Below are positions 24,369 through 25,802 of a stretch of DNA of 64,000 bases, in pieces. Position 1 is the first letter of the stretch; the number at the start of each line of letters is the position of its first letter. A program made the position numbers and the translations under genes. The stretch is taken from the NCBI GenBank assembly GCA_951406725.2, contig OX597833.1:51708001-51772000 (forward strand), written 5' to 3'. This DNA comes from Octopus vulgaris (Eukaryota). Below the pieces are notes generated by a model that was not told the DNA's origin, searched no databases, and was given only the letters and a program-made list of their open reading frames with translations.

Positions 24369-24592
24369 GTTTAAATATTTGTTGTGCAAGATTTTTTATC
24401 GTTTTGGGATTTGGTTTGCAAGATTCTTTATATGAGTTCGTGTGTTGAAGCATATTCTGTTGTGTCTTGGGAGAGTCATTTTCTTTTTGTGCCATATAAT
24501 TTAACACACTCACCGGTAAAATTTCCACTTATTTCTTATTCTTATTTTCCTAAAATTTTAGTTGCGTTTTGCAACCTTTTCAATAGTCTTGA
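24369..24592 (-). mobile_element. PLE-like element family U3A8 (variant hammerhead 24550-24586, G12 mutated)
   Basis: Homologous to 1611, 24887, 25605 copies. Confidence 0.7.
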
Positions 24593-24746
24593 CTCTTTGA
24601 GATATTTCTCCTGATTTTTAACAATTTGACTTCATATCTCTTTGATGTCGACTTTATTTTTCATGCCTTCCATCTGGAAGCATGAAAAGGAGCGTATCAG
24701 TCAAATAACCGACGTTGACTCTCAAGACTATCGACAGTCAATACTA

Positions 24747-24886
24747 TAAGGTTGTCCCAAAAGTTCGTAGAAAGTCTTGGAAAATAATGGTCTTTATTTT
24801 GAGGAATAATTTTTGTTGTTTTTGTCAGTACTTGGCGAGTAAAAATCAATTTTCGCAAGTGTTTATGAACTTTTGGGACAACCTAA
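24747..24886. mobile_element. 140-bp mariner-type MITE with TA target-site duplication
   Basis: TA-TAAGGTTGTCCCAAAAGTTC ... GAACTTTTGGGACAACCTAA-TA; TIR resembles the mariner TTAGGTTGG.GCAAAAGT type. Confidence 0.85.
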
Positions 24887-25016
24887 TATTGAAAAGGTTA
24901 CAAGACGCAACGGAAATTTTAGGAAAATAAAAATAAGAAATAAGTGGAAATTTTACTGGTGAGTGTGTTAAATTATAAGGCACAAAAAGAAATTGACTCT
25001 CCCCAGACACAACAGA

Positions 25017-25017
<1 letters not shown>
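24887..25017 (+). mobile_element. PLE-like element family U3A8, inverted relative to 24369-24592
   Basis: UA-UUGAAAA-G-GUUAC-AAGAC-GCAAC-GGAA-AU-UU-UAG; MITE inserted into its stem-I TA. Confidence 0.7.
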
Positions 25018-25104
<87 letters not shown>

Positions 25105-25179
25105 ACACTACTGATGAAAAATAACTAAAAGCAATACTGCCGACAGCACACAAATTTAATAGTGTATATGTTACGAGAA

Positions 25180-25590
25180 TAGGATTAGAAGACACATGGA
25201 GGCAAATACGAAGTGAGGAAAATTAATTAAGATCAAAAATATCATGCTAGATGAAGAAACCAAGACCAGAAAATTAGACCAGACACACAAATACTTAGGA
25301 ATGAATAAACTGAGCGGAGTACAACACACGCGAATGTAAAAAGATATTATAGAAGCATTAGATTAATACTTAAAACAGAGCTAATTGTAAAACAATGACG
25401 TAATATGGAAACATATTCTAAATGCCCCAGTAACAAGCTACTGTTATGAATTTTTCGACGATGCGCTAAAAGAAATTCCAAGACTAGACGGGGGAAAGAT
25501 GGACTACATTTAGAATACTCTAACAAAAACCTAACAAAGATGGATTATATTTACAATGTCTAGAAGGCCACACGGATGTTATACAATTAG
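25180..25590 (+). mobile_element. R4/Dong-type LINE reverse-transcriptase C-terminal remnant
   Basis: Fragments THKYLGMN...HTRM, YYRSIRLILKTEL, PVTSY, LYLQCLEG..VIQL match YKYLG / R.R.ILK.ELN / RLYLPR.EGGRGL motifs; many stops and frameshifts. Confidence 0.7.
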
Positions 25591-25604
25591 GACTCTATAA
25601 CATA

Positions 25605-25802
25605 GTTTCGTTTTTGGATTTGGTTTGCAAGATTCTTTATATGAGTTCGTGTGTTGAAGTATATTCTGTTGTGTCTGGGGAGAGTCATTTTCTTTTTGTG
25701 TCTTATAATGTAACACACTCATCGGTAAAATTTCCACTTTTTTCTAATTTTTATTTTCCTAAAATTTTCGTTGCGTCTTGCAACTTTACAATAGTCTTGA
25801 CT
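25605..25802 (-). mobile_element. PLE-like element family U3A8 (variant hammerhead 25759-25794)
   Basis: CUA-UUGUAAA-GUUGC-AAGAC-GCAAC-GAAA-AU-UU-UAG. Confidence 0.7.

What the first reader, a model, noticed from the sequence alone, without database searches (positions are those of the whole stretch)
24369..25802. Repeat family whose hammerhead has the compensatory U3-A8 core (UUGAAAA), invisible to CUGANGA searches
Seen: four copies (1707-1743, 24550-24586, 24887-24922, 25759-25794) give consensus CUA-UUGAAAA-G-GUUGC(AAGAC)GCAAC-GAAA-AU-UU-UAG. This is the same architecture as the canonical 17446 HHR, but with both C3->U and G8->A. Each copy has only private defects. Known: positions 3 and 8 form a Watson-Crick pair in the active hammerhead, and U3-A8 is a tolerated natural covariant. 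Inference: the double change argues for selection on catalysis in a PLE-dependent family that motif screens would miss. Caveats: stem I is only 3 bp and UUU is a weak triplet.
Basis: partly seen in the sequence, partly recalled or inferred. Interest (0 to 1): 0.8.

Follow-up and report, generated by a model that had tools for sequence, protein, structure and literature searches.

The report
Penelope-type mini-repeat with U3-A8 hammerhead
A very abundant 196-base repeat begins with a minimal hammerhead ribozyme motif whose core pair is U-A instead of C-G, a variant already published for Penelope-like retrotransposons, so this is likely an ordinary new family of a known kind, and whether it cuts RNA is untested.

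Summary
The four copies and the UUGAAAA core are real. Contigs of four public runs show a 196-base, very high-copy family whose majority sequence fits a strict minimal type I hammerhead descriptor (chance 0 in 2 x 20 Mb). Two preferred 3' ends, (TA)n flanks, inverted 5' junctions and a 14-bp target duplication fit a non-autonomous Penelope-like element; no partner reverse transcriptase was found. The U3-A8 core is not new: Cervera and de la Pena 2014 report about 1,300 in Schistosoma Penelope-like elements, one with the same UUGAAAA core; 3-bp stem I and UUU triplets are normal there. No C3/G8 subfamily appeared, so covariation could not be shown, and copies include the whole ribozyme, so they likely came from uncut RNA. 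One lead: the long tail is predicted to pair with stem II and switch the fold off. This scan noted U3-A8 Penelope hammerheads before in other genomes. Verdict: new member of a known kind.

The parts
1608..1747 (-). Copy 1 of the family, short-tail form (about 140 bp), ending in a (TATC)n/(TA)n microsatellite; hammerhead 1707-1743 with intact core, 2-bp stem I
24399..24594 (-). Copy 2, full 196-bp form; hammerhead 24550-24586 with G12U; predicted cut between 24553 and 24552
24369..24398 (-). Low-copy extension beyond the usual 3' end, partly repeating the tail, followed by (TA)n
   Evidence: 23-bp match to 24409-24431 at 87%; lower depth
24413..24423 (-). Tail segment predicted to pair with stem II 5' strand and loop (24567-24576) in the family majority
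   Evidence: pair probabilities about 1; 6 of 400 shuffles as strong
24466..24513 (-). Candidate retained GT-AG intron (48 nt; alternative acceptor gives 57 nt); its removal would leave one frame through the hammerhead free of stops. Splicing not seen
   Evidence: no such joint among the 15 shown
24595..24735 (.). Low-copy spacer between the divergent copies 2 and 3; not part of the amplified family
   Evidence: depth falls to 0.02-0.06% past 24602
24736..24746 (+). Displaced 5' stub of copy 3 (first 11 bases of the family, one mismatch), holding the outer stem I base
24747..24886 (.). 140-bp MITE with terminal inverted repeats and TA duplication (24745-46, 24887-88), inserted in stem I of copy 3; termini resemble mariner-derived mir-548/MADE1 type
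24887..25021 (+). Body of copy 3, short-tail form ending in (TG)n; hammerhead with A13G and a stem II mismatch
25608..25802 (-). Copy 4, full form (195 bp); hammerhead 25759-25794 with A6U and a one-base deletion
25594..25607 (+). Left copy of the 14-bp target-site duplication of copy 4
25803..25816 (+). Right copy of the 14-bp target-site duplication of copy 4
17446..17482 (-). C3-G8 minimal hammerhead of a different, non-homologous repeat family (comparison only)

Best explanation
This is a 196-base, very high-copy repeat that starts with a minimal type I hammerhead motif with a U3-A8 core, and it is likely a non-autonomous mini-copy of the front end (pLTR plus tail) of a Penelope-like element, copied by that element's reverse transcriptase from RNA in which the ribozyme had likely not cut. 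Steps: (1, inferred) RNA starts near base 1, 11 nt ahead of the core; (2, inferred from the Anolis PLE) a PLE protein nicks AT-rich or (TA)n DNA and starts reverse transcription at one of two internal sites; (3, shown) copies end at two preferred 3' positions about 54 nt apart, next to AT-rich or microsatellite DNA, and begin upstream of the whole hammerhead, often with an inverted piece at the 5' junction; (4, inferred) the U3-A8 core was inherited from a parent in which it could cut weakly, as a dimer or with protein help; (5, shown) inserted copies decay, and none of the four here is intact.
For: Majority fits a strict descriptor with G10.1-C11.1, an extra base after position 9 and a palindromic 15.2-16.2, 0 chance hits in 2 x 20 Mb; this matches the published PLE min-HHR consensus, and the Schistosoma mansoni(4) Cercyon motif has the same UUGAAAA core, a 3-bp helix I and U17 (PMC4209133 supplement). 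Sharp family edges at about 24595 and 24399. Loose ends cluster at 24399 (240, 125, 160, 35 contigs) and 24452 (86, 50, 54, 10), with AT-rich or (TA)n consensus (894 rows hidden); copies 2 and 4 end at the first, copies 1 and 3 at the second: the optional tail that PMC11167929 ties to two RT start sites. 11 of 15 joints shown are opposite-strand, 9 of them at the 5' edge (44 hidden), as described for PLE insertions (PMC8557442). 14-bp target duplication. No step in depth at the predicted cut (ratios 0.84-0.88 across it, against 0.68-0.72 and 0.85-0.95 for neighbouring bins); in the Anolis PLE uncut RNA is the main template and the HHR cuts only with protein.
Against: No PLE reverse transcriptase or GIY-YIG was linked to the family: 0 of 355 filtered reading-frame pieces of the window hit Pfam (of 742), and the peptide read through the element found no credible relative. 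No whole genome was held. Cleavage is untested. Stem I is weak (pair probability 0.15-0.43) and the fold z-score of copy 4 is only -1.2. The joints are mostly single contigs of one run at 80% likeness. Contig depth cannot show RNA ends and is no copy number.
Confidence: 0.72

Rival explanations
1. One reading: the family spreads because the U3-A8 hammerhead cuts, as in non-LTR retrozymes (tandem units cut into monomers, circularised, reverse-transcribed), so catalysis is under selection in this family.
For: All core positions are kept in the majority; the one non-CpG subfamily variant seen inside the motif, A15.2G at 9% in one run, can still pair; U3-A8 ribozymes are active in vitro (PMC3088659).
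Against: Copies are dispersed singles or inverted pairs, not head-to-tail arrays; their 5' edge lies upstream of the whole ribozyme, not at the cut; no depth step at the cut; no tertiary-loop helix I; variant deficit not significant (p 0.20).
Confidence: 0.1
2. The motif is hammerhead-derived but was already dead in the master copy; U3 and A8 arose by AT-biased drift and the hairpin is kept for another role (promoter, protein binding or coding overlap).
For: Both changes are transitions in AT-rich DNA (GC 0.335 in this 2-kb bin); a U3-G8 intermediate occurs in a published PLE motif (Saccoglossus); HHR mutants do not stop insertion by the Anolis PLE in vitro; one frame runs through the motif without stops up to a splice-donor-like site.
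Against: Every other core base and all stems are intact in the majority, which drift after loss of function would not be expected to leave.
Confidence: 0.13
3. The likeness is chance: an ordinary hairpin flanked by A-rich sequence in a SINE-like repeat.
For: A-rich composition; relaxed descriptor gives up to 19 hits per 20 Mb; no Rfam hammerhead match.
Against: Strict descriptor 0 in 2 x 20 Mb; Rfam also misses the canonical 17446 motif, so its blank says nothing; independent PLE hallmarks surround the motif.
Confidence: 0.05

Closest known systems
U3-A8 minimal hammerheads in the pLTRs of Cercyon Penelope-like elements of Schistosoma mansoni (Cervera and de la Pena 2014, PMC4209133)
   Same: Identical UUGAAAA core, extra base after position 9, G10.1-C11.1, no helix III beyond a palindromic dinucleotide, 3-bp helix I, U17; mostly dispersed single motifs; opposite-strand pairs 100-700 bp apart are described.
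   Different: Other host and sequence; AU rather than CG palindrome (UUU triplet, as in the Crassostrea motif); here a discrete 196-bp family with sharp ends; parent PLE not found.
Poseidon PLE of Anolis carolinensis, PAc (Frangieh et al. 2024, PMC11167929)
   Same: Hammerhead near the element's front end, copies ending at two sites downstream (optional tail), AT-rich targets, uncut RNA as template.
   Different: PAc is autonomous with RT and GIY-YIG, has C3-G8, and its tail is 30-40 nt; here about 54 nt, no ORF shown, all mechanism inferred.
Natural U3-A8 hammerhead core variants (Perreault et al. 2011, PMC3088659)
   Same: The same covariation at positions 3 and 8, stated to be active in vitro.
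   Different: I saw passages only; those examples were not compared in sequence.
Non-LTR retrozymes of animals (PMC7229834; bioRxiv 10.64898/2026.07.22.740005)
   Same: Short non-coding, PLE-related, type I hammerhead-bearing repeats.
   Different: Retrozymes are defined by tandem units each with a complete hammerhead and circular RNA; this family shows dispersed copies with PLE-type tails and a minimal motif.

Membership tests
Minimal type I hammerhead (min-HHR) | Core boxes YUGANRA and GAAA with a Watson-Crick 3-8 pair | tested here: met
   Family majority U3-A8; single window copies each carry a defect
Minimal type I hammerhead (min-HHR) | Helix II with G10.1-C11.1 and an unpaired base after position 9 | tested here: met
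   5-bp stem, pair probability 0.99-1.0 up to nt 175
Minimal type I hammerhead (min-HHR) | Palindromic 15.2-16.2 and NUH triplet | tested here: met
   AU palindrome, UUU triplet; same in the Crassostrea PLE motif
Minimal type I hammerhead (min-HHR) | Helix I of at least 2-3 bp | tested here: met
   3 bp in the majority; weak, probability 0.15-0.43
Minimal type I hammerhead (min-HHR) | Covariation across the family | tested here: inconclusive
   No variant row at positions 3 or 8; family too uniform
Minimal type I hammerhead (min-HHR) | Self-cleavage 3' of H17 | not testable with these tools
   Only contigs available; no run on record as RNA
Penelope-like element (non-autonomous, pLTR-derived) | Optional 3' tail from two RT start sites | tested here: met
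   Ends at 24399 and 24452-54 in all four runs and in the window copies
Penelope-like element (non-autonomous, pLTR-derived) | AT-rich or microsatellite targets, inverted pieces at the 5' junction | tested here: met
   Loose ends and joints (mostly single contigs); 3 of 4 window copies end at or near microsatellites
Penelope-like element (non-autonomous, pLTR-derived) | Homology to the pLTR of an autonomous PLE with RT and GIY-YIG | tested here: inconclusive
   No genome held; protein and Pfam searches blank and insensitive
Penelope-like element (non-autonomous, pLTR-derived) | Retained spliceosomal intron | tested here: inconclusive
   Candidate 48- or 57-nt GT-AG intron; no spliced joint shown
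Non-LTR retrozyme | Head-to-tail tandem units each with a complete hammerhead | tested here: not met
   No tandem copies in the window; little sequence joined beyond the family edges in the rows shown; whole genome not available
Non-LTR retrozyme | Circular monomeric RNA | not testable with these tools
   Needs RNA reads or RT-PCR

The most novel reading that the evidence does not exclude
The element carries a built-in off switch: its optional long tail pairs with stem II of its own hammerhead and unfolds it, so long-form RNA stays uncut and is copied whole, while short-form RNA, or RNA whose tail is bound by the Penelope protein, refolds and cuts. This would give a structural reason for the protein-assisted cleavage seen in the Anolis element and tie ribozyme state to the choice of reverse-transcription start. 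Basis: folding only (stem II probability falls from 0.99 to 0.002 once the RNA passes nt 180; 3.4 kcal/mol; 6 of 400 shuffles; found after the fact; natural copies 2 and 4 keep stem II).
Probability: 0.12. Interest if true: 0.6.

Novelty: new member of a known kind. Interest (0 to 1): 0.22.

Why it matters
As a ribozyme variant it adds little: U3-A8 minimal hammerheads in Penelope-like elements are published. It matters modestly for repeat annotation, since a very abundant short 'SINE-like' family appears to be PLE-derived and its hammerhead is missed by CUGANGA descriptors and by Rfam. It is also a compact 196-base test object for an open question, what PLE hammerheads do, since copies appear to come from uncut RNA and the tail is predicted to mask the ribozyme.

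Tried and rejected
Rfam: no hammerhead in 24360-25020 or around copy 1, none in the 150 of 450 rows shown for the window; the canonical 17446 motif is missed too, so this is uninformative. No whole genome held. Exact-pattern scans of metagenome contigs: 0 matches twice. No RNA holder listed among the runs; run X10 is only guessed to be RNA. Peptide read through copy 4: no hit in the word-indexed search or Pfam; the one phmmer hit, P0003 (E 8.5e-4, 26% identity), is a tandem-repeat sequence and was rejected. The stretch 25102-25590 looks by recall like a decayed R4/Dong-type RT piece, but Pfam and the protein search gave nothing, so it is left unnamed. Pfam on 355 of 742 stop-free pieces of 45 aa or more (low-complexity ones dropped): 0 hits; a transposase-like frame at 605-1099 was also missed, so sensitivity is low. 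The 'elem' nulls were invalid (training string of 6 letters) and were redone. Homology between this family and the 17446 family: none, so 17446 is not an ancestral C3-G8 state. Idea that copies 2 and 3 with their spacer form one PLE with inverted pLTRs: spacer is low-copy, so left unproven. Luense, Weinberg and Breaker 2017 (PLE hammerheads cleaving as dimers) was not held; seen only as a reference entry.

Full report
Observation. The window is microsatellite-rich, AT-rich animal-type DNA (it resembles octopus DNA by recall, not tested). blastn finds exactly four copies of the family, at 1608-1747 (-), 24399-24594 (-), 24887-25021 (+) and 25608-25802 (-), 90-93% alike. A descriptor scan of both strands for either core found only the C3-G8 motif at 17476; 0 of the 4 copies pass as they stand. 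Copy 1 keeps the core but has a 2-bp stem I; copy 2 has G12U, the general base (role from PMC6155905, passages); copy 3 has A13G and a stem II mismatch; copy 4 has A6U and a deletion. Copy 3 is also split: a 140-bp MITE with inverted termini and a TA duplication (24747-24886) sits inside stem I, leaving the first 11 bases of the family at 24736-24746. Copy 4 has a 14-bp target duplication. The reported span is thus a cluster of separate insertions.

Family-wide view. No genome was held. Of 24 listed runs, 22 hold the stretch or part of it, under five coded organism labels, none on record as RNA. I laid 4 of them on 24369-24746 at 80% likeness: 14,666, 8,777, 9,043 and 2,866 contigs. Summed depth reaches above a million in two runs inside 24399-24594 and falls to 0.02-0.06% between the bins 24590-602 and 24603-15; this is no copy number but shows a very abundant family with a sharp 5' edge 11 bases ahead of the core. 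G12 is the majority at 92.5-95.6%. None of the 40 variant rows shown lies at position 3 or 8 (5 rows hidden; variants near contig ends are under-reported), so there is no sign of a C3 or G8 subfamily. The majority built from copy 2 and these letters passes the strict descriptor, and the minimum-energy fold of its first 60 bases is exactly stems I and II; chance hits were 0 and 0 per 20 Mb strict, 4 and 19 relaxed with either core (the like nulls were invalid). Stem II is firm, stem I weak (0.15-0.43); copy 4 alone folds no better than shuffles (z -1.2).

Penelope-like hallmarks. Loose ends cluster at two 3' positions, 24399 (240, 125, 160, 35 contigs) and 24452 (86, 50, 54, 10; plus 80 at 24454 in X1), with AT-rich or (TA)n consensus (894 rows hidden). 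Copies 2 and 4 end at the first, copies 1 and 3 at the second. Frangieh et al. 2024 (PMC11167929; first two of four parts read; supplement search blank) show that the Anolis PLE starts reverse transcription at two internal sites downstream of its hammerhead, giving the optional tail, cuts AT-rich DNA, uses mainly uncut RNA, and that its hammerhead cuts only with protein. Of 15 joints shown, 11 are opposite-strand and 9 of these touch the 5' edge (44 hidden; mostly single contigs of one run), in line with inverted 5' pieces described for PLEs (PMC8557442, passages). Against membership: no parent protein was found. 0 of 355 filtered frame pieces (of 742) hit Pfam and the peptide read through copy 4 gave only a repeat artefact; these searches are weak. 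A candidate GT-AG intron of 48 or 57 nt would clear both stops from the frame that runs through the hammerhead (3 of 4 acceptors tried do so, so the test is loose), recalling the retained intron of Penelope (PMC2377424, passages), but no spliced joint was shown.

Selection on catalysis. Not shown. CpG-type decay is 4.3-7.3% at G12 and 3.3-7.9% at C11.1, against 3.9-10% at a CpG outside, as expected of neutral inserted copies. Non-CpG variants of 4% or more, counted by hand from the rows shown and leaving out copy 2's five private letters, number 1 of 37 positions inside the motif and 15 of 151 outside (Fisher p 0.20); the one inside, A15.2G, can still pair. The 17446 family is not homologous, so it is no ancestral state. 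Depth shows no step at the predicted cut, so most copies likely derive from uncut RNA. That the whole core is intact in the majority suggests function in the parent, but cleavage is untested; published min-HHRs cut poorly even as dimers.

Known work. Cervera and de la Pena 2014 (PMC4209133; parts 1-2 of 4 and supplement file 2 parts 1-2 read, file 1 not searchable) found the U3-A8 core in Cercyon PLEs of Schistosoma mansoni and about 1,300 hits with a new descriptor; their alignment holds a motif with the same UUGAAAA core, 3-bp helix I and U17, a Crassostrea motif with the same AU palindrome and UUU triplet, and a U3-G8 motif in Saccoglossus. Perreault et al. 2011 (PMC3088659, passages) reported natural U3-A8 covariation and cite its activity in vitro. 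Searches for this particular family in print listed no paper on it; a 2026 octopus repeat annotation has no 'ribozyme' or 'hammerhead' in its main text and a squid genome paper counts 235 Rfam hammerheads; Repbase, Dfam, subscription journals and unseen supplements may name it. Earlier AI notes of this scan report the same variant in other genomes; none matched this sequence.

A lead. In the majority sequence, nt 172-182, present only in the long-tail form, pair with the 5' strand and loop of stem II (probabilities about 1); stem II falls from 0.99 at 175 nt to 0.002 at 185 nt, forcing it costs 3.4 kcal/mol, and 6 of 400 shuffles of nt 61-196 do as much (39 of 400 bring it under 0.5). Natural copies 2 and 4 keep stem II in their best folds. 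This was found after the fact and rests on folding alone, but it would explain uncut templates and protein-assisted cleavage, and is easy to test.

Verdict. Real motif, real family, likely PLE-dependent, variant already known: new member of a known kind, interest 0.22.

Noticed in passing
window 39602 (+) and 52649 (+): Two more copies of the 17446 family; both have U4C (CCGACGA) and a GUU triplet, so that family's common form may itself carry a variant core.
   Followed up: partly
window 40342 (-): A third min-hammerhead-like motif with G8C (CUGAUCA), 5-bp stem I, CG palindrome; probably a decayed copy of another family.
   Followed up: no
window 24747-24886: 140-bp mariner-type MITE, the only copy in the window, inserted at a TA in stem I of copy 3.
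   Followed up: yes
window 24561-24575 (-): Stem II arms GUUGC/GCAAC resemble those of Drosophila Penelope hammerheads (GGUUGC/GCAACC); kinship or chance.
   Followed up: no
window 25102-25590 (+): Decayed coding-like stretch interrupted by copy 4; by recall like an R4/Dong non-LTR RT piece, but searches gave nothing.
   Followed up: partly
window 24653-24687 and 24715-24746: A small palindrome in the spacer and scrambled fragments of the family's first bases just upstream of copy 3.
   Followed up: no
window 24566: The loop base of a CpG varies at 11-17% while its stem partner varies at 4-10%; possibly a tolerated subfamily variant.
   Followed up: partly
window 605-1099 (+) and 58902-59357 (+): Frames of 164 and 151 aa that look by eye like DNA-transposon remnants; no Pfam hit.
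   Followed up: partly
window 46261-46332 (+): tRNA-like match, 56 bits; tRNA or tRNA-derived SINE head.
   Followed up: no
window 49132-49211, 48944-49346, 59843-60425: Long perfect or near-perfect inverted repeats.
   Followed up: no
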